From positions 1 to 40,687 of the forward strand of contig CAXNJQ010000001.1 in the NCBI GenBank assembly GCA_964202705.1: a DNA stretch of 40,687 nucleotides, read 5' to 3'. The notes under the pieces are model-generated. The model searched no databases. It saw only the letters and a list, made by a program, of their open reading frames with translations, and was not told the origin of the DNA. Source of the DNA: Holosporaceae bacterium (GTDB taxonomy: Bacteria; Pseudomonadota; Alphaproteobacteria; Holosporales; Holosporaceae). Positions 835-23,899 of the stretch are shown here, piece after piece; within the stretch, counting starts at the first letter, position 1, and each line of letters begins with the position of its first letter. The position numbers and the translations under genes were made by a program.

Positions 835-2046
835 ATGGGAAAAGCATCCTATATCGTCCAAGAGCCCATGAATTCTTTTGATTTTTGGTATTGCAGTTTG
901 GGTTATGGTGTGTTGATGCAAACAATACACCACTCTGTTTTTTCACAAGGCTTGTCTGGAACATATTCTGGAACACCCCATGCCTGCTCTATTCTTATCC
1001 AAGGTCCAAAAGGCGTTGGAAAACGCTCTCTTTCACGGATTTTGGCCCACCAATTATTGACGGGATATCCCTGGCTGTCTGGCTCTGCATGCCCAGATTC
1101 CACTGTACAAGAACCATTAGGTTCCGATATGATGTCCGTTGGTCTGGATGCCTCTGGCTCTAGGGCTTTCAACAATGGGGTACACAACCCATCCCAACCG
1201 CTGTCAGCGCTGTCTAATCATTGGAAAGATGCTGCTTTGGCATGGGAAAAAGACCATAAAACATTGGATTCTCATCCAGAATACCTGGTTCTTGCAGCCG
1301 GTTCCGGCATTGATGATATTCGAAAACTGCGACAACAGTTATCCTATACACGTTTGGGAGATTCTGTTCGGGTTGTGGTGTTGCCAGAGGTTCAATCTTT
1401 GGGGTTGTCCAGTATGAATGCCCTGTTGAAATGGATTGAAAATCCCGGACCGCAAACGATTTTTATCCTGACGGCATCGGGTGCATTGCCTGAAACTGTT
1501 CGATCGCGGTGCATAGAGTATAAGATGCCAGCGCTGGATTTGGAAGATTTTTCCAGGGTGCGTTCCTGTATTCAGGCCTTTTACGCATCAACGGGTGGTG
1601 GTTTGCATGCCATTGATGGCCCTGATTCTAATCAGGAACCCTTGGACAAAAGGGCGCAGCACCATCTGTTTAAAATTTCCCAGGGTGCCTTGGTGCGTGC
1701 ACACTATTGGCAAGATCATTTGCCTTGGGTCATGCAGACATGGTCTGTGTTGTATCAATGTGCCACAGAATCCCCCATTGTTGATCCTGAATGGTTGAGC
1801 ACAGCGGTGCGATTAGGGGATGGGGTTTGGGATGTTTTTTATATTTGGGCAAGAGACGTGGGTACTTTGGCCTATGGGCAAGAATTTTTACACCATTGGG
1901 ATTATTTTTGGCATGATACCTGGGATCTAATGGTACAGCACCACATTTACCACACAGAGCAATCCAGTGTGATACAAGCCGTCGCAGCTCGAATCCATGG
2001 GTTTTTTACCTATTATGGCGTTCGCCCCATGCAGGAACCTTTATGA
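835..2046 (+). CDS. holB: DNA polymerase III delta-prime subunit (clamp-loader AAA+ protein)
   Basis: ILIQGPKGVGKRS P-loop, ALLKWIENPGPQTIFILTA and ETVRSRC (SRC motif), typical of HolB. The ATG at 916 (MQTIHH...) is an alternative start. The C-terminal half is long and divergent. Confidence 0.8.
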   Translation: MGKASYIVQEPMNSFDFWYCSLGYGVLMQTIHHSVFSQGLSGTYSGTPHACSILIQGPKGVGKRSLSRILAHQLLTGYPWLSGSACPDSTVQEPLGSDMMSVGLDASGSRAFNNGVHNPSQPLSALSNHWKDAALAWEKDHKTLDSHPEYLVLAAGSGIDDIRKLRQQLSYTRLGDSVRVVVLPEVQSLGLSSMNALLKWIENPGPQTIFILTASGALPETVRSRCIEYKMPALDLEDFSRVRSCIQAFYASTGGGLHAIDGPDSNQEPLDKRAQHHLFKISQGALVRAHYWQDHLPWVMQTWSVLYQCATESPIVDPEWLSTAVRLGDGVWDVFYIWARDVGTLAYGQEFLHHWDYFWHDTWDLMVQHHIYHTEQSSVIQAVAARIHGFFTYYGVRPMQEPL

Positions 2047-3209
2047 TGAACGCTTTGAAATGGACTGGGGTAAAAATGGCAAAAATTCTATCTTTTTTGT
2101 ATGGCTGTAGCACCATTTTTGTTATATTATGTTTTATCCCCATTATAACATCTTTTTCTGTAAAAAATCATGGTATTGATGATGTTCTGCGCTGTAAAAC
2201 CCTGTGGGATTATTATGGCTTTTGTTCAAAAGAACAGAAAAAAGCCATTGCTTTTTTGTTGAAACAGACAGGAATTGATTGGAAAGATCCTGTGATCAGT
2301 AGGAGTCTTACCAAATCAGATTTGTGGAAAATCATGACCTTGGTGCAAAAGACACAACGTCAATGGGTGCGCAGAGCGCCCAAACAAGAACGCTGGGATG
2401 TTATAAAAAACGATGATAGCCCAGAGCAGAAAAAGACAATGTTACGGTGTTTAAAAATATTGGGTGTGGTCCATGGGTGCTTTCCCCTCAAGTCCAGTCC
2501 CAGTCATGCCATTTGCGTCCTGGGGGCAACGGGACCGGTGATGAATAAAAGGTTGAAATTTTTAGAACGCTGTATCGAGAAAGGTCTGTTTCGTCGTCAA
2601 AACATATTATTACTGTCAGGAGAACGCCCATTACAATCCCGTGTCGATGATCCAGAGTACAATGATTTGATTCAAAAAAAAGGTCCAAATTCCAAAGAGG
2701 TGGGATTAGAGCGTGATTTATTACAGCATTTATATGATTCCAGCCCGTCTGCTAAGCGTAAATGGCCTGTAACCATGATTCATGGTAAAAAAGGAGATTT
2801 GCCCAGAGCCACAACGGAAAGCACGGTTAAAACCCTTTTAAATTGGCTGAAAAGCCATCCAGAGATTAAAACCATTGTCTTTATTTCATCCCAACCCTAT
2901 GTTTTATATCAAAAAGCAATCATTGGTTCTGTGGTTAAATCCTGTGGCAGTGATTTAAATGTTCAGGTGGTGGGGGATGGGGCCAAACTCAAAGAGGTTG
3001 ATCAGCTGTTGGCAGAACTGGGGTCGTATATTTGGGCCATAACGCCCTCTGTTTTGTCGTCCATACCTCTGCCCAAATTATCGGATGGGGATCAGCAAAA
3101 CCTTTCTGATTTTTTGAATACCTGTTATGGCGCACAAAAATCTTTGTATCACATTTTGCCAAAAATGTTGAAAGTTTCCCCAAAAAACAGGCCCCATGGA
3201 CTGCCCTAG
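2043..3209 (+). CDS. hypothetical membrane-anchored protein (weak DUF218/YdcF-like resemblance)
   Basis: Overlaps the holB stop (ATGA-type overlap). The N-terminal TM segment ILSFLYGCSTIFVILCFIPIITSF suggests a start at ATG 2076. HAICVLGATGP...LLLSGERP...TTEST...IVFISSQPYV loosely recalls the DUF218 fold pattern; this is low-confidence. Confidence 0.55.
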   Translation: MMNALKWTGVKMAKILSFLYGCSTIFVILCFIPIITSFSVKNHGIDDVLRCKTLWDYYGFCSKEQKKAIAFLLKQTGIDWKDPVISRSLTKSDLWKIMTLVQKTQRQWVRRAPKQERWDVIKNDDSPEQKKTMLRCLKILGVVHGCFPLKSSPSHAICVLGATGPVMNKRLKFLERCIEKGLFRRQNILLLSGERPLQSRVDDPEYNDLIQKKGPNSKEVGLERDLLQHLYDSSPSAKRKWPVTMIHGKKGDLPRATTESTVKTLLNWLKSHPEIKTIVFISSQPYVLYQKAIIGSVVKSCGSDLNVQVVGDGAKLKEVDQLLAELGSYIWAITPSVLSSIPLPKLSDGDQQNLSDFLNTCYGAQKSLYHILPKMLKVSPKNRPHGLP

Positions 3210-4683: not shown

Positions 4684-6177
4684 TTAAAATTGAACTTTGA
4701 CACCCACAATCGCGGTGTTCGTAAAATTGGATTTGCCTGGTACGCCAGAAAAATCAAATCGTGTAAGGGATGGAATCATGGTGCTGGTGTATGCCCAATC
4801 TGGATTGCTCAACTTGAACGTTCCAAGTTCGACATACGGTACAACACCAGGCATGGCATTGTATTGGGTGGACAGAATGTATCCCTGGCAAGTGGCTTTT
4901 TCACTTTTGGTTTGACCTTGCCCTAAAAATCCAGTCCTGACGCTGGATTGCAAATAGGACAAGCTGACACCATAGGTATCACCCGTATACCCCAGGGACA
5001 TGTTAACGATTTTCCCATTACCAGAGGCAGAGGCCACATATTCTTTGGATTCAAAGGTGGTTTCTGATCCATTGAACTCAATGGTGCCTGGAGTAATGCC
5101 CGAGGATACCTCGTTGCCCTCTTCATCCAATATGATGGGATTATAATCGTTTTTCAGCATATGGGATTTGCCGTTATGCATATACTCGATTCCAAAGGAA
5201 ATAGGCCCCAGCGTGATGACACCACCCAATTGATAGGCATTGGTGTTAAAACGCTGTAACTCGTCACCCGTCAGTTCAGGCGATCCCTTTTGGGTGACTT
5301 TATTGTCTACGCTGATTTGATTCACTGCGTCTTGGGGCAGCAAGGGTTTTTCTGCTTGGGTTTTTGCCGTGATTTGAACAAAGGACAATCCAAAGCTGCC
5401 CTTGTTCCATTGGGTTAAATAATTAATGCCCCAGGCAATGCTGTTCAGATCAAAGGGGGCAAAGGGTTCACGCAAGGGTGAAACGCCAGTATTGAGACTC
5501 ATTTCACCGCGATGCAGCGTATTGGGTGTATAGGAAACAGAGGCCTGTAATCCTTTCAGCACCCCCTGTTTGATGCGTGAAGAAATATAGCGAACCTTGG
5601 TCGCTGTCCCCGTATATCCTGCAATACTGGGATAGAGTAAAACCCCTGTGGTTGCTGGTAAAAACTTTCCAAAACCTGTCCCATAAAATGCCCCTGATCC
5701 TTGGGCCACGTCCCCTGCACCCATGGGGGTGACATCTTCCACACCATAGGCGTTACCAAGCGCAAGGGTTCCAAACAATTCATTATCGAACAGGACATAG
5801 GCCTCTTTGACCGCACCCTTGCCACCAGCACCTTGGTTGATGTTATAAGACCCAACCAACGATATGGTCCAATCGTTGACTTGTTTAGATGCCGTAATCG
5901 TAAATCTTGAACTGTTAATCAAGAACATATTGTTGGCATTATAGGTATTAAACGGTGTGCTGTCTGTTTGAAACAATTTTTGAAATCCAGAACCAGAAAA
6001 CAAAAAGGTTTGCTGTTTTTGATTCTGACCAAACGGCATTTCAAACATCATTTTTCCACTAAACACCACTTCGAACCCGTTAGCAGAGGACAAGGAAGGT
6101 CCTTTTGCTGGAGCAGCCACAACCGCGTAAGTATACAGTGAACAGCATAACGCTGCTAAAAAATGATAGCGCAACAT
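4684..6177 (-). CDS. outer-membrane beta-barrel porin-like protein
   Basis: Signal peptide MLRYHFLAALCCSLYTYAVVAAPA, a Gly/Tyr/Ser/Thr-rich alternating pattern throughout, and a C-terminal ...AIVGVKVQF ending in Phe (OMP signature). Confidence 0.6.
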   Translation of the reverse strand: MLRYHFLAALCCSLYTYAVVAAPAKGPSLSSANGFEVVFSGKMMFEMPFGQNQKQQTFLFSGSGFQKLFQTDSTPFNTYNANNMFLINSSRFTITASKQVNDWTISLVGSYNINQGAGGKGAVKEAYVLFDNELFGTLALGNAYGVEDVTPMGAGDVAQGSGAFYGTGFGKFLPATTGVLLYPSIAGYTGTATKVRYISSRIKQGVLKGLQASVSYTPNTLHRGEMSLNTGVSPLREPFAPFDLNSIAWGINYLTQWNKGSFGLSFVQITAKTQAEKPLLPQDAVNQISVDNKVTQKGSPELTGDELQRFNTNAYQLGGVITLGPISFGIEYMHNGKSHMLKNDYNPIILDEEGNEVSSGITPGTIEFNGSETTFESKEYVASASGNGKIVNMSLGYTGDTYGVSLSYLQSSVRTGFLGQGQTKSEKATCQGYILSTQYNAMPGVVPYVELGTFKLSNPDWAYTSTMIPSLTRFDFSGVPGKSNFTNTAIVGVKVQF

Positions 6178-8805: not shown

Positions 8806-9336
8806 TTACAGTGTTTTTGATTTGTTTTGTTGAAAATCACAACATAAAGTGGCCAGGCGTTTGGACCACATCAACATGTCTGATTCTGTGCACCCATTCC
8901 CCGATATACCGTACAGTGGCGGTATGGTTTGGGAAATAACATTTCCATGCCGATTAACCCAGTGATGGCCCCCTGTATCAATCCAGGCTTTTTCTTGCTG
9001 CTCTTTGTCTAATAGATCAAAAAAAGAGGCGCTAAACACAGTCCATTCGGGTGCGGCCAGCCCTTTGGCAAAGGATTGACCGGCTCTGGTTGCGGTAAAG
9101 GGACCAGGTTCGTGTAATGTGGCCATACTGGTGATGTTCTGGTTTTGGGGCATTTGGTGCCATAATTGTGGCAACAAGATTTCACAGGCGGGTTTGGGGT
9201 CAGAATGCATGGCGCATGCTGTGGGTATAGGCTGGAATAGAGAAGAGTGAGGGCAGGGCGTTTGCATCAGGTCATCTTTACACCATATCACCATGGCCAA
9301 GCGGGGAAAGGTCAACAGAGTTAAGATATGAGACAT
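8806..9336 (-). CDS. hypothetical protein
   Basis: ORF open to 9426. The internal ATG at 9336 (MSHILTLLTFPRLAMVIW...) gives a hydrophobic N-terminus. No recognisable motif. Confidence 0.4.
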   Translation of the reverse strand: MSHILTLLTFPRLAMVIWCKDDLMQTPCPHSSLFQPIPTACAMHSDPKPACEILLPQLWHQMPQNQNITSMATLHEPGPFTATRAGQSFAKGLAAPEWTVFSASFFDLLDKEQQEKAWIDTGGHHWVNRHGNVISQTIPPLYGISGNGCTESDMLMWSKRLATLCCDFQQNKSKTL

Positions 9337-9464
9337 TTGAATACAGTGCAGGGGGTTTTGTCTGACCATACCAATGGATGGGTGTGGATGCAATCCTGCA
9401 GGGGTTTTAAAACCAGAGGAGATCACCCCCCTGGTATACTGGCCCTAATAAGAGTCCAGTGGCT

Positions 9465-9755
9465 TTACATGCCGCATGGATCACATGGATTGCAAGTGTT
9501 CATGACAACGGGTTCTGGGCAGACTGTTGCACATGGGTTGCATGCCGTTGGAACGAGGCTGACCGTTGCTATTTTTTTACCACAGTAATCTTTGCTGATG
9601 CAAACGCTGGTGGCCAATTGCTTTGTGTTCAAGCTGTTTGTGGCAATGGTGACGACCTGTGATGAGCATGGGGATACTGCAAAGGTGTCGCAGCTGGCAG
9701 CATTAACGCTGAAAACGCAAGACAACAGGGCCAATGTGGCGATTAATTTTTTCAT
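9465..9755 (-). CDS. small cysteine-rich secreted protein (96 aa)
   Basis: Internal start ATG at 9755 is preceded by AAAAGGAGAA (reverse complement of 9761-9770) at correct SD spacing. Leader MKKLIATLALLSCVFSVNA. The mature ~77 aa contains 12 Cys, including two CNPC motifs. Confidence 0.6.
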   Translation of the reverse strand: MKKLIATLALLSCVFSVNAASCDTFAVSPCSSQVVTIATNSLNTKQLATSVCISKDYCGKKIATVSLVPTACNPCATVCPEPVVMNTCNPCDPCGM

Positions 9756-9989
9756 AAGAATTCTCCTTTTTGTATTTTTAAAAATAGCTGTTAAAAGCTC
9801 TGGTTTTATTTTATTATGAAATATTTGAAAAAATTCTGAACAATACATATCAGATTGAGATTTTTTTGAATTTTGTTTATCCTGAATTTGGCGATGATAT
9901 CTTAAAAATGTCAAAAACTAGAGAATATTAAAAAGGAATAAAAATGCTGTATCCATTGACCGCTGTATGCTTTTTGTAAACAATAAGAA

Positions 9990-11729
9990 ATGATATTAAT
10001 GGGGATGGGAGTGGTTCTTTACACATTCAAAAGATGCTCCACCATTGGTGTGATGGCGTTATGTTTGTTTGGGTGTTCTAAAAATCGGTACCACGATCCG
10101 TTGATCGGGCAGACCAAGGCATCCTATCGCGCGTTAACAGCACCTGTTTCTCCGGCCTTTGCATCCAAAACACCGCCCGTATACCAGCCACCGTATTCGG
10201 CTTTGCCGCCCGCATTTTATCAAAAAGTGTCTTTGTCTTTATCCGGTCAAATTCCTTTGAAACAAGCCTTTTTTGAATTGGCCCGTCAAGCAGGATTGAA
10301 CATTATTTTGGAATCCAGTTTTCCGAAAAAAAGCAACTTTTTCTTTACAGCCCATCAACAGCCGCTGATCGATGTTTTGGAAAATCTGTGCTTGATTGGG
10401 AAATTGCGTTATACCATCAACAATAATGCCCTGTACATCGGGGCAGATCGACCCCATTTGAAAAATCACAATGTTCAATTTTTGCTGGGGTGTCGAAAAA
10501 CCCAAACCCAAACATCGGTAAAAACGGATATTTATTCCAATGGCATGACGGGATCAAAAAACCTGCTGGATAATGGGGCGAACATTACCCTAAATACCAG
10601 CCATACTGTGGATTTTTGGGAGGAATTAGAGCGCACCATCGCCATGGTATTGAGTACGGATTAAGTCAAGAACAAGCCACGCTATTCCGTCAATCGCTAT
10701 GCGGGAATTTTGTCTGTGTATGGGACTCAAGCCCAGCATCGTCAAATTGAAGGATATTTAAAACAATTGCGACAAGCCACCATGACACAAATTTTGGTCG
10801 AGGCAAAAATCATTGAAATTGATTTGTCCGAAGAGTATCAAAATGGGATCGATTGGACTGTCTTTATCAATAAAGTCAAGAATGGTGTGGGCATCAATCC
10901 CCTCATCGGTGCAGGGCTGTCCCCATTGGCCACAATGAAATTCAATGCAGAGGGGCGCTCTGTGGTTTTGGCAACCGATCAATTAGAGGCCATTATGAAT
11001 TTGATGGAGGAATTTGGCACCATCCGTACCTTGGCCAATCCTCGACAAACCGTGATTAACAATCAATCTGCCGTATTAAAAGTGGCACACAACGAAGTAT
11101 TTTTTGATCCTGAAATCCAGGACGACAGTTTTGCCAACAGTACGGGTCCATTGGCGTCAACCCGCCAACGGGTACGCAGCAATATACAAACCGTTCCCAT
11201 TGGATTAATTTTGTATGTTCACCCATCTGTGAATTGGGAAACGGGCGATATTATGGTGTCCTTGCACCCCACCATTTCACGGGTACAGAAAACGGTGGCC
11301 TGTCCAACATTATTTGGCGCGTATACGCCTGTTCCGGGCAGAGATCATGGAAAAAACATGGCTGAATATTACGCACAATTGAATGCGTCTTGCCAAGTGC
11401 CCATTGTGCAAATTAGGGAAATGGATTCGGTCATTGTGGCCAAAGAAGGTCAAGTCATTGTAACGGGTGGATTAATGGAGGAACGCGTCAGCATTAATGA
11501 TCGGGGTACACCGGGGTTGTCTGCTTTGCCTGGCGTAGGAGGCTTGTTTACCCACAAAGGTAAAAAACGCCATGTGACAGAGCTGATTATTTTGTTAAAA
11601 CTGACCATCGTACGGGATGGAAATACCGTCACACCGGCCGATCAGCGCCTGTACACCTGTTTTACGGCTGATCCACGGCGTGTCAATTTACAATCAAAAA
11701 GTGGGGGGCAGGGGGTTGCGCGCGCATAA
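9990..11729 (+). pseudogene. MshL/PilN-like lipoprotein secretin interrupted by one in-frame TAA (10662-10664)
   Basis: Track ORFs 9990-10664 and 10710-11729 are in the same frame and read through as ...VLSTD*VKNKPRYSVNRYAGILSVYGTQAQH.... Lipobox LCLFGCS. Secretin core motifs present: QILVEAKIIEIDLSEEYQNGIDW, TIRTLANPRQTVINNQSAVLKV and PGLSALPGVGGLF...ELIILLKLTIV. Confidence 0.75.
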
Positions 11730-17104: not shown

Positions 17105-17917
17105 ATGTCCTTTTTTCAGTCTGTAAAAAAGCTTTTTAATCACGTTCGGACCAAACCAACAGAGGGTGAGGTTCAGCATAATCAAGCGCTGGATGATTTT
17201 TTAGATCAAACGTTGGATGCCGTTATGATTCAACGCAGCGACATTGTGGCCATTCCAACCCATATGCCCTGCGATGAGGTGGTACGCAAGTTTTTAAAAA
17301 CCGGTTTTTTGTGGTTTCCCGTGTTCCGAGATACCTTGGATACCATTGTGGGTCTGGTCAGTGTGCATTGTATTTTATCCTTAAGAGAATCATCGGATAC
17401 ATCTGAACATCAGTGGTGTCGGCATTTGAATGCACCTACATTTTGTCCCAGCGCCATGACCGTCAGAGAAGCGTTACGTACGTTACAAGATCATCATAAA
17501 ATTCCCATGCTCTTTGTGGTGGATGAATATGGTGGGGTGCAGGGCATCGTCACCAAAGATCACCTGTTAAGGGATTTATTTGATTCCTATATCGATGATT
17601 TTTCAGATGAGGAAGAGATGATTTTGGGAAAAGATCCCGTTTGGGTGATCAATGGGCGCATTAATTTAGAAGATTTTGTCGAAGAATTTAACGCCTCTGC
17701 ATTACTGATTCCCGAAGATGAGGGCCGAATTCACACCTTGGGGGGTTGGATATGTGCCTATGTAGGGCGTGTGCCGTTAACGGGAGAAATCATTACGCAC
17801 CCTGGGGGTTGGACCTTTGAAATTCGTCAAGCCAATCCCCGACAAGTTCATCAAATTGCGTTATTACAGACGCCCGTTGATGATCACCACAATCTAGAGA
17901 AATTGCCAGAAGCGTAG
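17105..17917 (+). CDS. corC: CBS-pair / CorC-HlyC domain protein (TlyC/CorC family)
   Basis: Directly follows ybeY, as is common. Two CBS-like repeats, then a transporter-associated C-terminal domain (INGRINLEDF...HTLGGWICAYVGRVPLTGEII...FEI). The TAG stop overlaps a GAATTC site. Confidence 0.85.
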   Translation: MSFFQSVKKLFNHVRTKPTEGEVQHNQALDDFLDQTLDAVMIQRSDIVAIPTHMPCDEVVRKFLKTGFLWFPVFRDTLDTIVGLVSVHCILSLRESSDTSEHQWCRHLNAPTFCPSAMTVREALRTLQDHHKIPMLFVVDEYGGVQGIVTKDHLLRDLFDSYIDDFSDEEEMILGKDPVWVINGRINLEDFVEEFNASALLIPEDEGRIHTLGGWICAYVGRVPLTGEIITHPGGWTFEIRQANPRQVHQIALLQTPVDDHHNLEKLPEA

Positions 17918-18163
17918 AATTCGGATCCTGCCTGCAGAGTTTATCTCTGGGCGGATAGACACGCAGCACTGAATTGGTCGTGTTCTGGATAGAGGTTTCC
18001 GGCCCATATTATTTACAGATTCATGACCCTATACAGAGCCATTGCTGGATGGGCATTCCAAAAAAGTATCGTTCATTAGAATGAAAACAAACGATCAGCA
18101 TCTATGATAAAAATAATTAATGATGTATCATGGCAACAAAATGCGGGCCTTAACAGCTGATTA

Positions 18164-18343
18164 ATCGTTTTAAACTATATTTAAAACCAACAATCATGAA
18201 CAATGACAGGTATTTATGGTTGTTGAATCTGTTGTAAATAAATACTTTTAAAAAAAGAGGATGAATTTAAAATGAAAAATAATTATATGATTTGCATGAT
18301 GGCTATTCTCAGCCTATATAATATAGGGATTAATGCCGTTGAA
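18164..18343. repeat. direct repeat copy 1 (leader + signal-peptide module of ORF-A)
   Basis: Aligns by eye with 18682-18860. The upstream ~108 nt show about 6 mismatches and 1 indel. The first 72 coding nt are identical. Similarity decays over the next ~45 nt. Confidence 0.85.
18167..18187. repeat. AT-rich inverted repeat GTTTTAAA-N5-TTTAAAAC upstream of ORF-A (possible operator)
   Basis: Perfect 8-bp arms with a 5-nt spacer. An identical-arm copy lies at 18685-18705 upstream of ORF-B. Confidence 0.6.
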
Positions 18344-18691
18344 CCACAGAGCAGTGATGTCAAAAATACTGTTCAAAAAACTAAGGAGGAATGGGCGCGC
18401 GAAAGAAAAGAGTCTATCATTAGAACGTTGAAAGATGCGAAAAGTAAAATATTAAACTATGGGGATAGAGACATCTTTAACATAGATATGATTAACCAAG
18501 AAGGTCTCGGCGGAGGCAACTGGCTGGAACTAGACAACTGGCTGGAGACAACCTACGCTAGCTCAGCAATAAGAGAGTTAGCCAAGCGTCATTTTGACCT
18601 CGTCCGGAAATATCTAAATGGCACAGCCACTATGGATGATTTAATGCCGGCTATTTCTGAGATTTCAAAAATGAACTTTATATCGTTTTAA
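18272..18691 (+). CDS. ORF-A: small secreted protein, no recognisable family (139 aa)
   Basis: AGAGGA lies ~10 nt upstream of the ATG. Leader MKNNYMICMMAILSLYNIGINA. Paralogue of ORF-B, with an identical leader and a related C-terminal motif. Confidence 0.6.
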   Translation: MKNNYMICMMAILSLYNIGINAVEPQSSDVKNTVQKTKEEWARERKESIIRTLKDAKSKILNYGDRDIFNIDMINQEGLGGGNWLELDNWLETTYASSAIRELAKRHFDLVRKYLNGTATMDDLMPAISEISKMNFISF

Positions 18692-18860
18692 ACGATATTT
18701 AAAACCAACAATCATGAACAATGACAGATATTATGGTTGTTGGATCTGTTATAAATAAATACTTTTAAAAAAAGAAGATGAATGTAAAATGAAAAATAAT
18801 TATATGATTTGCATGATGGCTATTCTCAGCCTATATAATATAGGGATTAATGCCGTTGAA
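18682..18860. repeat. direct repeat copy 2 (leader + signal-peptide module of ORF-B)
   Basis: See copy 1. The period is about 517-518 bp. Contains the inverted repeat at 18685-18705, which overlaps the ORF-A stop codon, and a hairpin at 18706-18742. Confidence 0.85.
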
Positions 18861-19364
18861 TCACAGAGCGATGATGGCAAAAATAATATTGTGAAAAAAA
18901 CTGAAGATTTTCTTGAGGATAAAAGTGATGCAGACATAATAGCTATTGAGCGTGTAGTGTACTGGGTAAAAAGGAGAAGGATTTATGACGCGTTGAGATC
19001 AAAAAATCCGGAGGATTGGAGTATCATTGAATCATTAAATTGTGAAAAAAACTCAGCATTAAGTCTCTATGATAACGACAAAATAGACAGAAAAATAAAC
19101 CTTATTAAGGACCTGATGGTGATAAAATATTATTTTGATCCTATTCCTGAATCAAATGAAGGTGAAGAGCTGCACCAATTACAGGAGCAGATTCAGAACA
19201 ATGAATATGATCGAAATAAACCTGAGTTGATTTCGGAAATCCCACTTGATAGAGAACAATTCATCGAAGAATATTTCCTCCTTTTTAAATCATATAGAGC
19301 TGGAAAGAGCACTGCGATGGATTTACTAAATGCTATAAATAAATTTTTTCATGCGCGCGAATAA
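18789..19364 (+). CDS. ORF-B: small secreted acidic protein, no recognisable family (191 aa)
   Basis: The first 24 codons are identical to ORF-A, the middle is divergent, and the C-terminal YFLLFKSYRAGKSTAMDLLNAINKF aligns with ORF-A HFDLVRKYLNGTATMDDLMPAISEI. Confidence 0.65.
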   Translation: MKNNYMICMMAILSLYNIGINAVESQSDDGKNNIVKKTEDFLEDKSDADIIAIERVVYWVKRRRIYDALRSKNPEDWSIIESLNCEKNSALSLYDNDKIDRKINLIKDLMVIKYYFDPIPESNEGEELHQLQEQIQNNEYDRNKPELISEIPLDREQFIEEYFLLFKSYRAGKSTAMDLLNAINKFFHARE

Positions 19365-19530
19365 ATTTTTGATGCGCTCGCTTTGTATAATAATAAATAA
19401 ATAATTAACCCTATTTCGCCATCCCAATAAACGTGAACTAACATCATGGCTAGCCGTTTAAACACACTCGACATTTCAGAAAAATATCCTGAAAGAGAAA
19501 AAATAATATCGTCCATAGAGGAATTTAGAA

Positions 19531-19560
19531 TTGCCAACCAGGATACTTTTGTATTATAAT
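19531..19560 (+). promoter_or_regulatory. candidate sigma70 promoter for tRNA-Thr
   Basis: TTGCCA (19531-19536), 18-nt spacer, TATAAT (19555-19560), 10 nt before the first tRNA base. Confidence 0.45.
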
Positions 19561-19570
19561 TTTATCTGTA

Positions 19571-19643
19571 GCCGGATTAGCTCAGATGGTAGAGCGGCTG
19601 ATTTGTAATCAGTAGGTCGTTGGTTCGATTCCGACATCCGGCA
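19571..19643 (+). tRNA. tRNA-Thr (anticodon TGT)
   Basis: Hand-folded: acceptor GCCGGAT/ATCCGGC, D arm GCTC-AGATGGTA-GAGC, anticodon arm GCTGA-TTTGTAA-TCAGT, variable AGGTC, T arm GTTGG-TTCGATT-CCGAC, discriminator A. CCA is not directly encoded. Confidence 0.9.
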
Positions 19644-19824
19644 CCCCATTTTTTACAAAAAATAACTCAAAATATTTCCTATGGCTAATCACAGCGGCTG
19701 AGGGGATTTTTTTGTGGTCAGATGGTTTTTTTACCCAACGATTCACAGTGGATTTTTATATCGTTTTATTTAAATAAACTTTTTCCTGATATTCTGTGAA
19801 CCATAATTATTTTAAAAATCAGCC

Positions 19825-22065
19825 ATGCTCTCTTGGATCATTGTTTTTACTGGTTTATTTGCTCTAAGCTCCACCGTTCAGTCCGCACAAAGAGTTCCGT
19901 TGCCAAAAAACATCAAACTTAAACCCAAACCCAACATCAAACTTAAACCCAAACCCAAGATCAAACACAAACTTAAACCCAAGGACATGGGGCAAGGCAT
20001 CAGCCATACGGTGGATCGGTGGTTTTATTTTTGGTCCAAGTATGCGCCCCCTCATTCTGAAAAACATCTTGTTTCACGTTCTAAAAAACCCAGAAAAATT
20101 GTTTTGGATTACCCACAAGGATACGTCATTGTGGATAAGGCATGTCAGGCCTCTCTGTACGAGTCTATACCGGCCAATACATGGGTTGATCACAACACTG
20201 GAATGATTATTAATGATTATCACGAAATAAGCAGAATTGAAATGGTTGAAGGCCAAATTTCATGGTATAATAAAAATAAAGCCAATGAAAAAATAGATAT
20301 TGGATATTTGACTATACTGGACACGGCAGAAAAAAGGGGTGATTTGGATGTTCAGATTGTGGATGATGTGATGACTTTGTCTGCTTTTATGAAAAAAGAA
20401 AAGGCGGGTAAAGCCACCAACAAGCCCACAGAATTGAGGGTGAATGGGTGGAGTTTTAAATTAAACGAGACCAAAGAGGGCACTTACGGTGTGGGCGTCA
20501 AGGGTAAAAAGTCCATAACATTATACCGACAGCACCGTTATCGGCCTGGGATTGTTCGGTCATCAAATAAAGATTTGGTCTGCTCGGCCATTGAACAAAA
20601 AGATGATTCCTTGCAGGTCTATACCTTTGATGGCGTGATCACAGGTAAACAGATGGCGCAAAAGGTTTTGGTGCGTGAACTGTCCAATGCCCTTGGCCGT
20701 GCAATCCAGTTGAATGATATTACTTGGGTCAATGCTGCTGATTTGGACAATAAGGCAATGTTTGTTCCATCTGCTACAGGGATACCGAAACCATTGTTTA
20801 AACGAAACCATCAGCCTATTGTCCACAGGGCTGATGGGAATAGGGTGTACAGCGAAATCCCTTTTGAGAGGGGTCAGCTGAAAAATATCCCCTTGGGTTG
20901 TTTACACTTTGGAATATCGAAAAAAGAAAACCGAAGGGGCGTGTCAGACCGAACAGGAGCCTATTATGTTTACGTCGATTATGTGGTGTCCAAAGAGCAA
21001 TCGGAAAAAATGGATCGGGATTTGCTGAGGAGGATTTTGGAAAAAATGAGCTTTTATCGATTCGAAAAGGTCAACGGGCTGTCCTATGATGAAAAAAAAC
21101 GGATCTCTAAACCCGTAAGCCAAGATGGAGAGAGCGGTTTTGGCGACACCCATGTCAGCCTTTTTCCCAGTTCAGAGTGCGGATACGATCATAATCGCTG
21201 CAGCAACCTGGGTAGAGTGGTCAGTCCTCCTGTTCAAAATCAGGGCATTCATTTTACCTTGCCAACCGATGAGTATGGGCATCTATTGGAAAATGGGGGA
21301 TTTTATGCCTATAGCCGCGTTCAATCCGGAATGGATTGGAAAGAAGAATTACGGCGTATGGCTGAAAATATTGAAAATGCGGATTGTGATCATAATAAAA
21401 ATGCGAGGAGTGCAAAAGAAATTCGATTTAATGAATGGAATATAATTTTCTATACTGGGGAAAATGGGGTGTACGGGTTTGCCGACAATGGCGGACGCAC
21501 CATCAGTTTCTGTCAAGTGAAAAACCAAGGTATGCCTGTGAATATAATCGATATTTTTTACAAGGCATGGAAAATTTTTAACAAGAATAAAAATGTGCAC
21601 CTGTTTTTCAAATTAAAAAACAATGAAACGGAACCAGAGATGGTCGATATTTTGAATAACACATTGTTTGAACTGACTGGTCAACACCTGAATCATATAA
21701 AATTGCAATCAGAATATGTCCAGGATGTTCCATTTAAAATGGCCACGGTTGTATTGAAAACGCAAAATAAAATCACAGGTATTTTAAAATATGGAATATC
21801 AGATCAATCGAGACGACCAGGCAGTCCGCCCATGATGATCATTGTCGGCAATGGTTCTGGATTGGAAAAAAAGAAAAAAACCTCCTCTCCTATAGAGGCA
21901 TCCATGGTTGGTTTGCTGGAAAAAGATTTAGGTATGGATTTTTCCTGTCTTGCCAAAGGATTTGGTGTCGAGAGCCCCATGGATTCCATGGCATTTTCTC
22001 CTGATGTGGGGAATCCAGAAGGGATTTGGAAATCGTATACCCAGCTTGCTCTGTCTGGATTATAA
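19825..22065 (+). CDS. ORF-C: large secreted lysine-rich protein, no recognisable family (746 aa)
   Basis: A 746-codon stop-free frame in AT-rich DNA. Leader MLSWIIVFTGLFALSSTVQSA, then the NIKLKPKP repeat linker. Two internal related modules at aa 203-236 and 532-565. No obvious SD. Confidence 0.8.
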   Translation: MLSWIIVFTGLFALSSTVQSAQRVPLPKNIKLKPKPNIKLKPKPKIKHKLKPKDMGQGISHTVDRWFYFWSKYAPPHSEKHLVSRSKKPRKIVLDYPQGYVIVDKACQASLYESIPANTWVDHNTGMIINDYHEISRIEMVEGQISWYNKNKANEKIDIGYLTILDTAEKRGDLDVQIVDDVMTLSAFMKKEKAGKATNKPTELRVNGWSFKLNETKEGTYGVGVKGKKSITLYRQHRYRPGIVRSSNKDLVCSAIEQKDDSLQVYTFDGVITGKQMAQKVLVRELSNALGRAIQLNDITWVNAADLDNKAMFVPSATGIPKPLFKRNHQPIVHRADGNRVYSEIPFERGQLKNIPLGCLHFGISKKENRRGVSDRTGAYYVYVDYVVSKEQSEKMDRDLLRRILEKMSFYRFEKVNGLSYDEKKRISKPVSQDGESGFGDTHVSLFPSSECGYDHNRCSNLGRVVSPPVQNQGIHFTLPTDEYGHLLENGGFYAYSRVQSGMDWKEELRRMAENIENADCDHNKNARSAKEIRFNEWNIIFYTGENGVYGFADNGGRTISFCQVKNQGMPVNIIDIFYKAWKIFNKNKNVHLFFKLKNNETEPEMVDILNNTLFELTGQHLNHIKLQSEYVQDVPFKMATVVLKTQNKITGILKYGISDQSRRPGSPPMMIIVGNGSGLEKKKKTSSPIEASMVGLLEKDLGMDFSCLAKGFGVESPMDSMAFSPDVGNPEGIWKSYTQLALSGL
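19909..19983 (+). repeat. 24-bp coding tandem repeat (AACATCAAACTTAAACCCAAACCC x2 plus a degenerate third unit)
   Basis: Units at 19909-19932 and 19933-19956 are identical. 19957-19983 is a diverged unit. Together they encode NIKLKPKP NIKLKPKP KIKHKLKPK. Confidence 0.9.
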
Positions 22066-22143
22066 TTTTTTTAGATATTTTTTTTGCAAAAGATTTAAAA
22101 AATATTATAATAAAGAAAATAGGCTGCAGTTCAGGAGTTTTTA

Positions 22144-23214
22144 ATGTTTGATCAGGGCAAGTATAGATGGGCGGTTTTATTTTTTGCGACAACTGTTTTT
22201 TCAAACGCACCAGTTTTGGGTGAAAGGTCAGGCCAAGGGGGTCAAAAAGATAAAATAAAGCCGAACAATTTTAAAACAAAGGATTTTGTATGGGACGTCA
22301 CAGACCCAAGTGAAGAATTTTTACAGAAAACCATGGAAAAAGCCATTAAAAAGCTGAACCCAAAAAACAGAAAAACAGTACCGTTCAATTGGTTAGAGTG
22401 TCCCATCAAAAAAGGATGTCTCGCCAGTATGGGGAGGAGCGTCATTTATCTGGATGGTAAAAAAGCTGTGGAAATTCCTGTAAAAAGGGGGGAGTCTTAT
22501 GAAAAAATAGCCGAGAAAATATACTCTGTTTGTGGAGTAAAGGCTGAAAAAACAGTGTTGGGCATGCTGAATAAAAATGTACAATCTGATACGGCCATAC
22601 CTGGACTGATCAAGAAAATATTCGAAAAAAATAATCTGAAAAAGGGTCAAGAAGAAAATACAAAAAAAGAGGCGGCAAATATTAAGAAGGGGGCAAAGAG
22701 TAAGGAAGAGGTTAAGAAAAAAGGTGCTGCGCCCCAGGCAAAACAAAAGTTTGCACCAAAGGTTACGTTTTCAAAAGTTGAAAACAACACCCTAAGCATC
22801 GATGGAAAAGATATTCAGTGTTTTACCTGCACAAAAAAAACCGTTCGTGGAGCCATTAAAAAACGATTGGTTAGAAAAAATAATGAATCTGTGTTTGGTT
22901 TTATGTTTAAAAACAAAAAAGACAAATGGGTCTATTATATGGAATTGTTTGGTGGCAAAAAAGGTGGCCTGATCACAGAGCCCGGTTGGAAAACCAAGTA
23001 TGGGAAATTGATCAAAAAGCATGATGCAGATTCTTCTTTAAAAGAGAAAACCACGTGGCAGACCAAAGGGAATGAGGATGATAGAGGTTCCAAGAACAAT
23101 GAGAATCGTACGGATTTGTCAGATCATTTTATTCAAAATCCAATGGAAAAAGATCAAAACCAGACCTCAGATTTTTTCAAAACGGCAAAATTTAACGATA
23201 TGACGACAGATTAA
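22144..23214 (+). CDS. ORF-D: secreted lysine-rich protein, distant paralogue of ORF-C (356 aa); possible LysM-like segment
   Basis: GGAG lies 6 nt upstream of the ATG. Leader ...WAVLFFATTVFSNAPVLG. Shares the RK.V...K.C.AS patch and the ESVFGFMFKNKK module with ORF-C. aa 111-146, IPVKRGESYEKIAEKIY...LGMLNKN, loosely fits a LysM pattern (weak). Confidence 0.75.
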   Translation: MFDQGKYRWAVLFFATTVFSNAPVLGERSGQGGQKDKIKPNNFKTKDFVWDVTDPSEEFLQKTMEKAIKKLNPKNRKTVPFNWLECPIKKGCLASMGRSVIYLDGKKAVEIPVKRGESYEKIAEKIYSVCGVKAEKTVLGMLNKNVQSDTAIPGLIKKIFEKNNLKKGQEENTKKEAANIKKGAKSKEEVKKKGAAPQAKQKFAPKVTFSKVENNTLSIDGKDIQCFTCTKKTVRGAIKKRLVRKNNESVFGFMFKNKKDKWVYYMELFGGKKGGLITEPGWKTKYGKLIKKHDADSSLKEKTTWQTKGNEDDRGSKNNENRTDLSDHFIQNPMEKDQNQTSDFFKTAKFNDMTTD

Positions 23215-23233
23215 TTGGCACCCTTTTTTCCTT

Positions 23234-23249
23234 GCCCCTTTTTTGGGGC
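23234..23249. terminator. weak bidirectional hairpin between convergent ORF-D and trmL
   Basis: GCCCC-TTTTTT-GGGGC followed by TTT. Only a 5-bp stem. Confidence 0.3.
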
Positions 23250-23281
23250 TTTCCTGAAAAATGGTTGCAGAAAGGGGGATA

Positions 23282-23899
23282 TTAAACACATGGGTTTTGG
23301 GTTTTAAACAAACCCTCTGCCCATACAAGGGCACCCGCAATGGCGAGATTCATGGATCGAGCTGACGGCTGCATGGGAATGTGAATGCTGTGGTCGCATT
23401 CAGAAATGATCCTTCGGGGCAGTCCGCAACTTTCTGACCCCATGATCAGGTGATCACCTGGATGAAAAACAAAATCTCTGTAGGACACCCCTTCGCGCGG
23501 CACAACGGCAATGGTTCGGTGTGGTGCCTTTGCCCAGTGGTTTTGATAATCCCACCAGGAATCGTGAATATTGGGTTTACAATATTGGGCATAATCCATG
23601 CTGGCCCGTTTTAAATGTTTATCCGACCACACAAATCCCAAGGGGCCAATCAAAACCAAAGGCGCATTCCAACAGGCCGCCAGACGCATTAATGTGCCGG
23701 TATTGCCGGGAATTTCTGGTTGATACAATACACAAGCCACGCCATCCTGTCTATGCAGTGGCCGTGCATCCTGTTGGCAGACCACTTGCCGAGAACCAGC
23801 TGACTGTACTGAACCCTGCAGATCCAGATGATCAAGGGGCTGTTCTAAACAAGAGGGCGTCACCAGATTTTCAGACGTTACCGTATCAGATTTTGTCAT
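23282..23899 (-). CDS. trmL: SpoU/TrmL-type tRNA 2'-O-methyltransferase
   Basis: LYQPEIPGNTGTLMRLAACWNAPLVLIGPLGFVWSDKHLKRASMDY and the C-terminal knot region IMGSESCGLP...IHIPM..SARSMNLA are as in TrmL. There is an N-terminal extension of about 50 aa, so the start is uncertain. Confidence 0.8.
   Translation of the reverse strand: MTKSDTVTSENLVTPSCLEQPLDHLDLQGSVQSAGSRQVVCQQDARPLHRQDGVACVLYQPEIPGNTGTLMRLAACWNAPLVLIGPLGFVWSDKHLKRASMDYAQYCKPNIHDSWWDYQNHWAKAPHRTIAVVPREGVSYRDFVFHPGDHLIMGSESCGLPRRIISECDHSIHIPMQPSARSMNLAIAGALVWAEGLFKTQNPCV

What the first reader, a model, noticed from the sequence alone, without database searches (positions are those of the whole stretch)
17918..23280. AT-rich ~5.4-kb accessory segment around tRNA-Thr encoding two paralogous pairs of Sec-signal ORFan proteins
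Between the corC stop (17917) and the trmL stop (23282) the sequence changes character.

- **Composition.** Hand counts of single 60-nt lines give 14-20 G+C inside the segment (lines starting 18841, 21541, 22621). Flanking genes give 24-32 (lines starting 17341, 23401).
- **Content.** The segment has tRNA-Thr(UGU) in the middle and four + strand ORFs. All four begin with hydrophobic Sec-type leaders: MKNNYMICMMAILSLYNIGINA twice, MLSWIIVFTGLFALSSTVQSA, and WAVLFFATTVFSNAPVLG. None shows a catalytic or family motif I can name.
- **Coding evidence.** Stop-free frames of 746 and 356 codons in DNA this AT-rich are very unlikely to be noise.
- **Paralogy.** The ORFs form two pairs. A/B share a leader and a C-terminal motif. 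C/D share an N-proximal patch (C aa 87-111 KKPRKIVLDYPQGYVIVDKACQASL, D aa 73-96 PKNRKTVPFNWLECPIKKGCLASM) and a G-aromatic-G module. C and D are strongly lysine-rich, and B is net acidic by my count.
- **Mobility genes.** No integrase, transposase or phage gene is present.

Hypotheses, as inference only: a lineage-specific secreted or surface host-interaction family, or large basic envelope-directed proteins with small periplasmic partner or immunity-like proteins.
Basis: partly seen in the sequence, partly recalled or inferred. Interest (0 to 1): 0.75.

Follow-up and report, generated by a model that had tools for sequence, protein, structure and literature searches.

The report
Fast-evolving exported-protein locus at tRNA-Thr
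In a protist-endosymbiont relative of 'Candidatus Finniella', the gap between two housekeeping genes holds three families of proteins found nowhere else, all with export-type leaders and all changing far faster than their neighbours, which makes them candidates for contact with the host, though their function is unknown.

Summary
The sequence facts hold. The interval 17918-23281 is AT-rich (GC 0.379 against 0.464 elsewhere). It contains tRNA-Thr(UGU) and four + strand ORFs with N-terminal hydrophobic leaders, and no mobility gene. None of the four matches Pfam, NCBIfam, PHROGs, PADLOC or PDB.

The interpretation needs correcting in three ways.

1. A and B are true paralogs. They share a 217-nt duplicated 5' module and a C-terminal motif. 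C and D are not detectably related (hhalign probability 0.13%).
2. C and D are not accessory. All seven related loci that could be read, from Holosporales MAGs including 'Ca. Finniella inopinata', have C-D-trmL, and the five that reach upstream have corC and tRNA-Thr. C and D are low-GC in all of them. Only A/B is variable, and it sits between a probable decayed tRNA-Thr copy and the intact one.
3. The locus is hypervariable.
   - Flanking proteins are 83-96% identical to those of relatives. C is 37-59% identical and D 26-77%.
   - The body of B has dN/dS of about 1.8.
   - One relative's D is a mosaic that contains a window-like tract of about 900 bp.
   - tRNA-Thr and C are duplicated in other relatives.

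Best reading: these are clade-restricted, Sec-exported envelope or host-facing proteins that diversify by selection and recombination. Biochemical function remains unknown.

The parts
17938..18019 (+). Probable decayed copy of tRNA-Thr with its short flanks, lying where relatives have the intact tRNA (about 43-46 nt after the corC stop)
   Evidence: MAFFT places it on the tRNA. The local alignment score has z = 4.5, is reached by 0 of 1000 dinucleotide shuffles and by 3 of 546 other window segments. It is not detected by Rfam or ARAGORN. The same remnant is present in L009.
18164..18380 (+). 5' module, copy 1: an upstream region that begins with the ATCGTTTTAAAC palindrome, a GAGGA ribosome-binding site and the first 36 codons of A (leader)
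   Evidence: Direct repeats D1 and D2 are 92-96% identical to copy 2 at a spacing of 517-518 nt. The 51-nt leader core is identical in both copies.
18272..18691 (+). ORF A, 139 aa, a small acidic protein with the leader MKNNYMICMMAILSLYNIGINA|VE
   Evidence: The C-terminal motif YLNGTATMDDLMPAI is shared with P0026 (L010).
18682..18897 (+). 5' module, copy 2
18789..19364 (+). ORF B, 191 aa, acidic (pI 4.9), with the same leader as A. Its mature body is under positive selection.
   Evidence: Against the L009 ortholog, the leader has dN 0.013. The body has dN 0.446 and dS 0.252, giving dN/dS 1.8 with a bootstrap 95% interval of 1.11-3.06. Under neutral change the ORF would stay open with probability of at most 0.3%.
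19531..19560 (+). Promoter-like site in front of tRNA-Thr (TTGCCA, 18 nt, TATAAT)
   Evidence: 11 of 12 consensus matches. The TATAAT is conserved in relatives.
19571..19645 (+). Intact tRNA-Thr(UGU)
   Evidence: ARAGORN. Rfam tRNA score 72.4 bits.
19825..22065 (+). ORF C, 746 aa, basic (pI 9.3). It has an N-terminal hydrophobic leader, a Lys/Pro-rich low-complexity stretch, and then a large body with conserved blocks.
   Evidence: Against the closest relative, dN/dS is 0.54 and dN 0.266.
19909..19982 (+). 24-nt tandem repeat, 3.1 copies, inside C, coding for NIKLKPKP units
   Evidence: This post-leader region is the most variable part of the family alignment.
22083..22111 (+). Promoter of D (TTGCAA, 16-17 nt, TATAAT) in the C-D spacer
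   Evidence: The sequence TTTTTGCAAAAGATTTAAAAAATAyTATAATAAAGAAAA is nearly invariant in six related loci and recognisable in the distant L005.
22144..23214 (+). ORF D, 356 aa, 18% Lys (pI 9.7). It has a leader, two alpha/beta domains (aa ~40-160 and ~205-305) joined by a Lys/Glu-rich linker, and a disordered tail.
   Evidence: Against the closest relative, dN/dS is 0.40.

Best explanation
The interval is a hypervariable locus next to tRNA-Thr(UGU) in the chromosome of a 'Candidatus Finniella'-like member of the Holosporales, which are obligate endosymbionts of protists. The locus is inherited vertically.

**What it encodes**
- Three unrelated protein families restricted to this clade: the small acidic A/B family, the large basic C family, and the Lys-rich two-domain D family.
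- Each family keeps an N-terminal Sec-type leader even where the rest of the protein has diverged beyond 25% identity.

**Proposed mechanism (inferred)**
- The proteins are exported across the inner membrane. They act in the envelope, on the cell surface, or after release into the host cytoplasm.
- Contact with host factors, or host switching, then drives rapid amino-acid change.

**How variation arises (shown)**
- Positive selection on point substitutions in the body of B.
- A coding tandem repeat in C.
- Homologous recombination between strains. The conserved 5' module of A/B, the conserved D promoter and the duplicated tRNA-Thr copies are available as patches of homology for this (the role of these patches is inferred).

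**History (inferred from shown facts)**
- C-D next to tRNA-Thr is the ancestral state of the clade.
- A/B entered a sub-lineage together with a second tRNA-Thr copy. The copy next to corC has since decayed.

Shown: the gene families and their restriction to the clade, the synteny, the elevated rates, the recombination mosaic and the tRNA duplications. Inferred: export, cellular location and the role at the host interface.
For: **Organism**
- Relatives are Holosporales MAGs, including 'Ca. Finniella inopinata'.
- The review PMC11909080 describes Finniella as a cytoplasmic endosymbiont of cercozoans and ciliates with a genome of about 1.8 Mb and 44% GC.

**Restriction to the clade**
- The C profile found 7 hits among 1.84 billion representative proteins, all of this family.
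- The D profile found 12 hits.
- The A/B search found 5 entries, which amount to three distinct proteins.
- There are no Pfam, NCBIfam, PHROG, PADLOC or PDB sequence hits, and no significant fold match.

**Synteny**
- C-D-trmL is found in L003, L004, L005, L008, L009+L011, L012 and a JGI contig. The loci that reach upstream also have corC and tRNA-Thr.

**Real genes**
- The ORFs are intact in nearly all loci; the exceptions are recorded under Noticed in passing.
- The D promoter is conserved.
- dN/dS is below 1 for C and D.

**Fast evolution against the closest relative (flank dS 0.17-0.29)**
- dN is 0.016-0.083 in the flanks, 0.139 in D, 0.266 in C and 0.35 in B.
- The body of B has dN/dS 1.8, although a neutral ORF would almost surely have acquired a stop.

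**Deep allele types and recombination**
- Window against L008: C has dS 2.7, while the flanks have 0.33-0.37 and D has 0.22.
- L008 and L012 have pheT 99% identical, but D is only 71-73% identical.
- L008 carries a tract of about 900 bp that is 92-100% identical to the window.

**Copy-number dynamics**
- L012 has tRNA-C1-tRNA-C2. L008 keeps only a 157-aa remnant of C1.
- The window has A and B. L009 has only a B type. L010 has an A-like gene followed by a remnant of the 5' module.

**Leaders**
- All 16 family members tested have a hydrophobic N-terminal segment followed by small residues at -3 and -1. They have no other membrane-spanning segment. Four cytoplasmic controls lack the pattern.
Against: - Export is inferred from a simple heuristic, not from SignalP or experiment.
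- C has no positive charge before its hydrophobic segment. Its first 18 mature residues carry net +4, which is unusual for Sec substrates. By the positive-inside rule this could instead mean an N-terminal membrane anchor with the body in the cytoplasm. The C1 and C2 types are acidic in this region.
- Nothing links any of the proteins to a host target.
- Elevated dN/dS for C and D (0.4-0.5) is also what weakly constrained genes show.
- The positive-selection result rests on one pairwise comparison by the NG86 method.
- All comparison sequences are metagenome assemblies, so the mosaic D allele could be a strain chimera. The identical protein P0013 may come from the same lake.
- The decayed tRNA copy is only moderately supported and is invisible to Rfam.
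Confidence: 0.55

Rival explanations
1. The whole 5.4-kb interval is a recently acquired genomic island that integrated at tRNA-Thr. Its low GC is foreign DNA, and its integrase has since been lost.
For: - The interval has low GC and GC3 and is adjacent to a tRNA.
- tRNA-Thr is duplicated or has left a remnant in the window, L008 and L012. In L008 and L012 the repeats share the 3' 52-56 nt of the tRNA at 96-98% identity, as att sites do.
- A/B is absent from L003, L004, L008 and L012.
Against: - C and D sit at the same place in every relative, including the distant L005, and are low-GC in all of them.
- No integrase, transposase or phage-like protein is present here or in the related loci.
- The other low-GC ORFs of the window are also ORFans outside this interval, which fits AT drift in weakly constrained genes.
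- The window's remnant covers both the 5' and 3' parts of the tRNA, not just a 3' att core.
- The idea can only hold for the 1.5-kb A/B insert and for the C1 unit of L012.
Confidence: 0.12
2. The locus is a toxin and immunity (or bacteriocin-like) module. C would be a large exported toxin, and D or the small A/B proteins would be periplasmic immunity or partner proteins that diversify through competition between bacteria.
For: - The layout is a large protein next to smaller proteins that all carry leaders.
- Divergence is rapid and recombination occurs, as at polymorphic toxin loci.
- Weak fold-level resemblance of D to the Mog1/PsbP/EagT6-type sandwich, with TM-scores of 0.33 or less.
Against: - No toxin, immunity or delivery domain was found in any library.
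- Variation in C is spread along the protein rather than confined to a C-terminal tip.
- A/B is separated from C by a tRNA gene with its own promoter and is absent from relatives that keep C.
- D has its own conserved promoter.
- An obligate cytoplasmic endosymbiont meets few competitors (general knowledge; lifestyle from PMC11909080).
Confidence: 0.1
3. The genes are weakly constrained or decaying lineage-specific ORFs with no important function. Their fast change and low GC reflect relaxed selection in a small endosymbiont population.
For: - dN/dS is 0.4-0.5 for C and D, and local windows reach about 1.
- The composition is AT-shifted.
- Some copies have clearly decayed: the C1 remnant in L008, the disrupted leader of C in L004 and the truncated variant P0018.
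Against: - ORFs of 700-790 and 350-400 codons stay open in seven or more lineages at 37-59% identity, with many invariant columns.
- The D promoter is almost invariant.
- The leaders are conserved (dN 0.013 in the leader of B).
- A neutral B ORF would stay open with probability of at most 0.3%.
Confidence: 0.15

Closest known systems
Periplasmic stage-specific proteins of Holospora obtusa (89-kDa, 63-kDa PRP1 and 5.4-kDa proteins)
   Same: - They belong to the same order of protist endosymbionts.
- They are proteins 'with little homology' to anything else and carry a putative signal peptide. They are stored in the periplasm and released into the host during infection (PMC11909080; PMC9866348).
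- This is the nearest functional precedent for Sec-exported ORFan proteins at the host interface.
   Different: - No homology is detectable. The exhaustive profile search for C found nothing outside the Finniella-like clade.
- PRP1 has a Pfam D5_N domain, while C and D have no Pfam match.
- Finniella lives in the cytoplasm and is not known to have Holospora's infectious form.
- A direct sequence comparison with the Holospora proteins was not done, because their sequences were not at hand.
Hypervariable surface-protein genes of other obligate intracellular alphaproteobacteria, such as Wolbachia wsp and the Anaplasma msp2/p44 family (from my own knowledge)
   Same: - They are envelope proteins with leaders, restricted to a lineage.
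- They show very fast amino-acid change, positive selection and mosaic alleles made by recombination, inside an otherwise conserved genome.
   Different: - Those are outer-membrane beta-barrel proteins of known families with defined hypervariable loops. msp2/p44 uses pseudogene cassettes and one expression site.
- Here the folds are unknown and no donor pseudogene array was seen.
- Surface location is not shown.
tRNA-associated genomic islands or plasticity zones
   Same: - The locus is adjacent to a tRNA gene and has low GC.
- Its content varies between close relatives.
- tRNA sequence is duplicated at the borders.
   Different: - There is no integrase or other mobility gene.
- The main cargo, C and D, is fixed in the clade.
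- The duplicated tRNA copies are full length and decay gradually. Rfam scores are 72, then 52, then 46 bits, then undetectable.
- The variable units are single genes.

Membership tests
Integrase-mediated genomic island at a tRNA gene | A tyrosine or serine recombinase (integrase) gene inside the element | tested here: not met
   The interval has only four long ORFs, and none hits an integrase, transposase or phage family. None is called in the related loci either.
Integrase-mediated genomic island at a tRNA gene | Direct repeats of the 3' part of the tRNA at both ends | tested here: inconclusive
   - In the window, a degraded full-length tRNA-like remnant lies at 17938-18019 (z = 4.5), with the intact tRNA at 19571. 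Together they bracket A/B only.
- L008 and L012 have second tRNA-Thr copies that share the 3' 52-56 nt at 96-98% identity.
Integrase-mediated genomic island at a tRNA gene | Presence or absence polymorphism among close relatives | tested here: inconclusive
   Met for A/B, which is absent from L003, L004, L008 and L012. Not met for C and D, which are present in all loci.
Sec-dependent exported protein with a type I signal peptide | N-terminal n-h-c region with small residues at -3 and -1 | tested here: met
   - By heuristic only, all 16 family members have a 10-residue hydropathy maximum of 1.7-2.8 within the first 25 residues. Candidate cleavage sites lie at positions 20-26.
- Cytoplasmic controls score 0.3-1.7.
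- SignalP was not available.
Sec-dependent exported protein with a type I signal peptide | Neutral or acidic early mature region and a positive n-region | tested here: inconclusive
   Met for A, B, D and the C1 and C2 types. Not met for the window's C, which has no Lys or Arg before the hydrophobic segment and net +4 in the first 18 mature residues.
   BLASTP best E is 2.1. hhalign of the two family profiles gives probability 0.13%. Domain-by-domain hhalign gives 0.8% or less.
Paralogous pair A/B | Detectable similarity beyond the leader | tested here: met
   - The first 50 aa are 64% identical, and there is a 217-nt DNA repeat.
- The four-member alignment shares the C-terminal motif LFKSYxxGxxTxxDLxxAI.
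- The middle parts are not alignable between A and B.
Polymorphic toxin / immunity module | A recognisable toxin, delivery or immunity domain | tested here: not met
   No hit in Pfam, NCBIfam or PADLOC, for single proteins or for all family members.
Holospora periplasmic proteins (PRP1 / 63-kDa) | Sequence homology, for example the D5_N domain reported for PRP1 | tested here: not met
   C and D have no Pfam match. The C profile found nothing outside its own clade. A direct pairwise comparison was not done.

The most novel reading that the evidence does not exclude
The corC-trmL interval may be a dedicated diversification locus for host-facing proteins in a protist endosymbiont. Single-gene cassettes would be gained, lost and swapped between co-occurring strains by homologous recombination. 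The recombination would be anchored on three conserved elements: duplicated tRNA-Thr copies, a conserved promoter-plus-leader module, and the invariant D promoter. No integrase would be needed. The three ORFan families would be a new set of effectors or surface proteins that decide host range or persistence in Finniella-like bacteria.
Probability: 0.2. Interest if true: 0.6.

Novelty: new member of a known kind. Interest (0 to 1): 0.4.

Why it matters
No effector or host-interaction protein has been tested experimentally in Holosporales outside Holospora itself. The 2025 review says there are no experimental data on secreted molecules (PMC11909080).

This work singles out a short locus in an otherwise very conserved backbone. 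Its proteins carry export leaders, exist only in this clade and show arms-race-like evolution. That gives concrete candidates to test in the culturable Viridiraptor / 'Ca. Finniella inopinata' system.

The locus also shows how variable genes can turn over at a tRNA gene without any recognisable mobility gene. If the proteins turn out to be ordinary envelope components, the result is only a set of three new ORFan families.

Tried and rejected
- **Family searches.** Pfam, NCBIfam, PHROGs and PADLOC were searched with the four proteins, and Pfam with all members of the C and D alignments. Only sub-threshold noise came back: PIN, FliZ, BON and RnlA_toxin at E of 0.002 or higher.
- **PDB sequence searches.** Single proteins and profiles gave nothing.
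- **AlphaFold2 of C.** With a 5-sequence alignment the mean pLDDT was 38.7, which is unusable. The Foldseek hits had TM-scores of 0.09 or less on the query and were disregarded.
- **AlphaFold2 of D.** Mean pLDDT was 62.5, with two domains at 70-89. Foldseek against PDB and BFVD gave no hit at E of 0.001 or below. The PsbP and EagT6 resemblance is too weak to use.
- **C/D paralogy.** Rejected.
- **Relation of A/B to C or D.** Rejected by hhalign and tblastn.
- **Metagenome scans.** Two scans of JGI metagenome contigs, for A/B and for D, found no confirmed locus.
- **The tRNA remnant.** The Rfam E-value search of 17900-18300 found only chance hits. A stringent local alignment of the remnant was not significant. 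Only lenient scoring supports it.
- **Promoter and terminator scans.** Counts were not above shuffled expectation. Only the two promoters that are conserved in relatives were kept.
- **Chimeric A+B query.** The search with A joined to B did not return A itself or any A-specific hit. A's relatives beyond P0026 therefore remain unsearched.


Full report
**1. What is in the sequence**

The window is a 40.7-kb metagenome contig (ENA ERZ27280275). Its genes are ordinary bacterial housekeeping genes: holB-like, gpsA, mlaE, fabG-like, a secretin, xth-like, ftsK, dapB, gmk, ybeY, corC, trmL, pheT, an ABC ATPase, a YkuD transpeptidase, trmB, a phosphoglucomutase, leuS and others.

- ORF A, 18272-18691
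- ORF B, 18789-19364
- tRNA-Thr(UGU), 19571-19645
- ORF C, 19825-22065
- ORF D, 22144-23214

All are on the + strand. The interval has GC 0.379 against 0.464 elsewhere. Against 30 other ORFs of the window, the four genes have GC z-scores of -1.9 to -4.8 and GC3 z-scores of -1.3 to -3.9. The central part of C has near-normal GC.

No ORF in the interval hits an integrase, transposase, phage, defence or any other family. The only Rfam match is the tRNA.

**2. Paralogy**

A and B are paralogs of an unusual kind.
- A 217-nt block is duplicated at 92-96% identity with a spacing of 517 nt. It covers about 108 nt of upstream sequence plus the first 36 codons.
- The proteins are 64% identical over their first 50 residues.
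- The rest of each body does not align, except for a C-terminal motif.
- Two more family members were found, P0025 and P0026. They have an almost identical leader (MKNNYMICMMAILSLYNIxINA|VE) and the motif LFKSYxxGxxTxxDLxxAI.

C and D are not paralogs. BLASTP finds nothing. Comparing the two family profiles gives probability 0.13%, and no pair of domains gives more than 0.8%.

The G-aromatic-G module is, at most, a weak internal repeat within C. Residues ~203-234 and ~532-563 align with E 1.2e-3 and probability 19%.

**3. Organism and distribution of the families**

A genome-collection scan with the C alignment found three loci, all in Holosporales MAGs. One is labelled 'Candidatus Finniella inopinata'. 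Finniella species are cytoplasmic endosymbionts of cercozoan amoeboflagellates and of Euplotes, and the sequenced genome has about 1.8 Mb and 44% GC (PMC11909080). The window fits this description.

The families are extremely narrow:
- The C profile was read against 1.84 billion representative proteins and found 7 hits, all family members or fragments.
- The D profile found 12 hits.
- The A/B search returned 5 entries, which amount to three distinct proteins.

**4. Synteny: the interval is not one accessory island**

| Locus | Order of features |
|---|---|
| L003, L004 | corC - tRNA-Thr - C - D - trmL - pheT |
| JGI contig (3300059473) | C - D - trmL - pheT (contig starts just before C) |
| L005 (more distant, low GC) | C - D - trmL |
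| L012 | corC - tRNA-Thr - C1 (745 aa) - tRNA-Thr - C2 (794 aa) - D - trmL |
| L008 ('Ca. F. inopinata' MAG) | same as L012, but C1 is reduced to a 157-aa remnant, 92% identical to the matching part of L012 C1 |
| Window | corC - decayed tRNA-Thr - A - B - tRNA-Thr - C - D - trmL |
| L009+L011 (closest relative) | corC - decayed tRNA-Thr - one B-like gene - tRNA-Thr - C - D - trmL |
| L010 (1-kb contig) | A-like gene - remnant of a second 5' module - tRNA-Thr |

A and B have no tblastn match in L003, L004, L005, L008, L011 or L012. So C and D are a fixed feature of the clade at this position, and only A/B is accessory.

C and D are low-GC in every relative. C has GC 0.37-0.43 and D 0.32-0.37, against 0.43-0.52 for the flanking genes. 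The other lowest-GC ORFs of the window are also ORFans. I therefore read the composition as AT drift plus Lys/Asn-rich coding in weakly constrained genes, not as a sign of recent import.

**5. The tRNA copies**

In L003, L004, L008 and L012 the tRNA starts about 45 nt after the corC stop. At that place the window has a sequence that aligns to tRNA-Thr plus its short flanks, with an internal deletion.
- With lenient scoring its alignment score has z = 4.5. It is reached by 0 of 1000 shuffles and by 3 of 546 other segments of the window.
- With stringent scoring it is not significant.
- Rfam does not see it.

I call it a probable decayed copy.

The second copies in L012 and L008 still pass as tRNA but score lower, at 52.4 and 45.8 bits against 72.4. 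They share only the 3' 52-56 nt with the first copy at 96-98% identity.

The picture is repeated duplication of tRNA-Thr together with one downstream gene, followed by decay of the redundant copy. Whether an integrase once did this cannot be told. None is present now.

**6. Rates of evolution**

Identity of the window's proteins to those of relatives:

| Protein | Identity |
|---|---|
| corC | 91-96% |
| pheT | 83-90% |
| trmL | 70-81% |
| C | 37-59% (23% to the C1 type) |
| D | 53-77% (26% to the distant L005) |

Comparison with the closest relative (L009+L011), where flank dS is 0.17-0.29:

| Gene(s) | dN | dN/dS |
|---|---|---|
| ftsK, gmk, corC, pheT | 0.016-0.046 | 0.07-0.24 |
| ybeY, trmL | 0.065-0.083 | 0.29-0.37 |
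| D | 0.139 | 0.40 |
| C | 0.266 | 0.54 |
| B | 0.350 | 1.50 |

Splitting B gives a leader with dN 0.013. The body has dN 0.446 and dS 0.252, so dN/dS is 1.8 with a bootstrap 95% interval of 1.11-3.06. A simulation of neutral substitution at the observed divergence leaves the body open in at most 0.3% of trials. The excess of amino-acid change is therefore diversifying selection, not decay.

Along C and D, local dN/dS ranges from 0.2 to about 1. C also has a coding 24-nt tandem repeat (NIKLKPKP, 3.1 copies). It lies in the region after the leader, which differs completely between alleles.

**7. Recombination**

- Between the window and L008, C has dS 2.7. The flanks have 0.33-0.37 and D has 0.22. 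C therefore exists as deeply diverged types on a nearly uniform backbone.
- L008 and L012 are almost the same organism (pheT 99%, trmL 95%), yet their D proteins are 71-73% identical.
- A sliding comparison shows why. L008 follows L012 at 92-99% identity up to about window coordinate 22400 (88% in the next window). It then follows the window at 88-100% from about 22500 to 23400. In that stretch L008-L012 identity falls as low as 54%. L008 then returns to 100% identity with L012.
- That tract of about 900 bp covers the second half of D, the D-trmL spacer and the 3' end of trmL.
- The same mosaic protein occurs in a JGI data set (P0013, 100% identical).

The caveat is that all of these are short-read metagenome assemblies, possibly of the same lake, so a strain chimera is not excluded.

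**8. Signs of expression and export**

- D is preceded by TTGCAA, 16-17 nt, TATAAT. The sequence is almost invariant in six related loci and recognisable in L005, although the coding sequences on either side differ.
- tRNA-Thr has an 11-of-12 consensus promoter.
- A has a GAGGA ribosome-binding site.
- All A/B, C (including C1 and C2) and D proteins keep an N-terminal hydrophobic segment with small residues at -3 and -1 near positions 20-26. They have no other membrane-like segment. Four cytoplasmic controls lack this.

This is a heuristic, not SignalP. One reservation concerns C. In the window and its nearest alleles, the hydrophobic segment has no preceding positive charge and is followed by a strongly basic stretch. 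That could make it a membrane anchor with the body facing the cytoplasm. The C1 and C2 types are acidic at that position, as exported proteins usually are.

**9. Structure**

- The C model is unusable (pLDDT 38.7).
- The D model has two alpha/beta domains at pLDDT 70-89 (residues ~40-160 and ~205-305). They are joined by a Lys/Glu-rich linker and followed by a disordered tail.
- It has no significant neighbour in the PDB or in BFVD.

**10. Interpretation**

The best-supported account is a hypervariable locus of an obligate protist endosymbiont that has long resided at this position. It encodes three clade-restricted families of probably exported proteins, which diversify by positive selection, repeat variation, gene duplication and loss, and recombination between strains.

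By analogy, I infer that the proteins lie in the envelope or reach the host. The analogies are the ORFan periplasmic proteins that Holospora releases into its host (PMC11909080, PMC9866348) and the hypervariable surface proteins of Wolbachia and Anaplasma (my own knowledge). This functional step is inference only.

Three rivals are each contradicted for the bulk of the locus. They are a recent tRNA-targeted island, a toxin-immunity module, and decaying junk. The island idea remains possible for the 1.5-kb A/B insert.

**11. Verdict**

The locus is a good, concrete candidate for host-interaction genes in a poorly studied group, but it is a familiar kind of thing: fast-evolving, lineage-specific, exported ORFan proteins next to a tRNA. 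No function has been established. Interest is 0.4, and the novelty class is new member of a known kind.

Noticed in passing
window 9990-11729: The secretin gene seems to be split into two ORFs. One is 224 aa with a FecR_C-like N-domain, and the other is 339 aa with the Secretin domain. Relatives L003 and L009 have one ORF of 559-579 aa. This could be a frameshift, a pseudogene or an assembly error.
   Followed up: partly
L012 4897-9925 and L008 5517-8976: Two relatives carry two tRNA-Thr(UGU) copies. L012 has two tandem, deeply diverged C-family genes, C1 (745 aa) and C2 (794 aa), which are 24% identical. L008 keeps only a 157-aa remnant of C1. The second tRNA copies score 52 and 46 bits against 72 for the first.
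   Followed up: yes
L008 ~9400-10330 (window coordinates ~22500-23400): This is a mosaic tract. L008 switches from about 97% identity with L012 to 88-100% identity with the window across the second half of D and the 3' end of trmL, and then switches back. The identical D protein occurs as P0013 in a JGI data set.
   Followed up: yes
window 18164-18190, 18682-18708 and 19760-19782; L009 ~10700-10720: The motif ATCGTTTTA, followed by an AT-rich palindrome (GTTTTAAAC...TTTAAAAC), occurs three times in the window. All three lie upstream of A, B and C, where 0.4 would be expected by chance. TCGTTTTAAAC also lies just upstream of the C start in L009, with one-base variants (TCGTTTGAAAC, TCGTTTCAAAAC) in L003 and L004. 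It could be a shared operator, or a trace of how the A/B module arose. Two of the three copies come from the duplication.
   Followed up: partly
L004 ~2725-2816: In the MAG GCA_016870135.1, the leader-coding start of C (MRHWIFFYRLVCSRLTRSLC*) is cut off by a stop, and the gene was called from a downstream ATG (699 aa, no leader). This is either a frameshift or an assembly error.
   Followed up: partly
P0016 (ENA contig of 1022 nt) and P0018: P0016 joins an LptE-like N-terminal part (PF04390) to the C-terminal third of a D protein. P0018 joins residues ~87-190 of a C protein to an unrelated tail. These are either chimeric assemblies or further rearranged alleles.
   Followed up: no
window 2043-3209, 4684-6177, 8806-9426, 9465-9914: Four further ORFs outside the interval, of 388, 497, 206 and 149 aa, have no Pfam match. 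Two of them, 9465-9914 and 2043-3209, are the lowest-GC ORFs of the background set at 0.39 and 0.41. Low GC seems to track ORFan status across the window.
   Followed up: no
L009 end (10893) and L011 start: Two contigs of the closest relative come from the same sample. They break inside C just after the leader, in the basic low-complexity or tandem-repeat region. This suggests that the region is polymorphic or repetitive enough to stop the assembler.
   Followed up: no
L001 8089-8664 (a second assembly of the same organism): The B protein differs by one residue, Trp59 to Cys, between the two assemblies of what is otherwise the same sequence (P0022 against P0023). This points to within-population polymorphism in B.
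   Followed up: no
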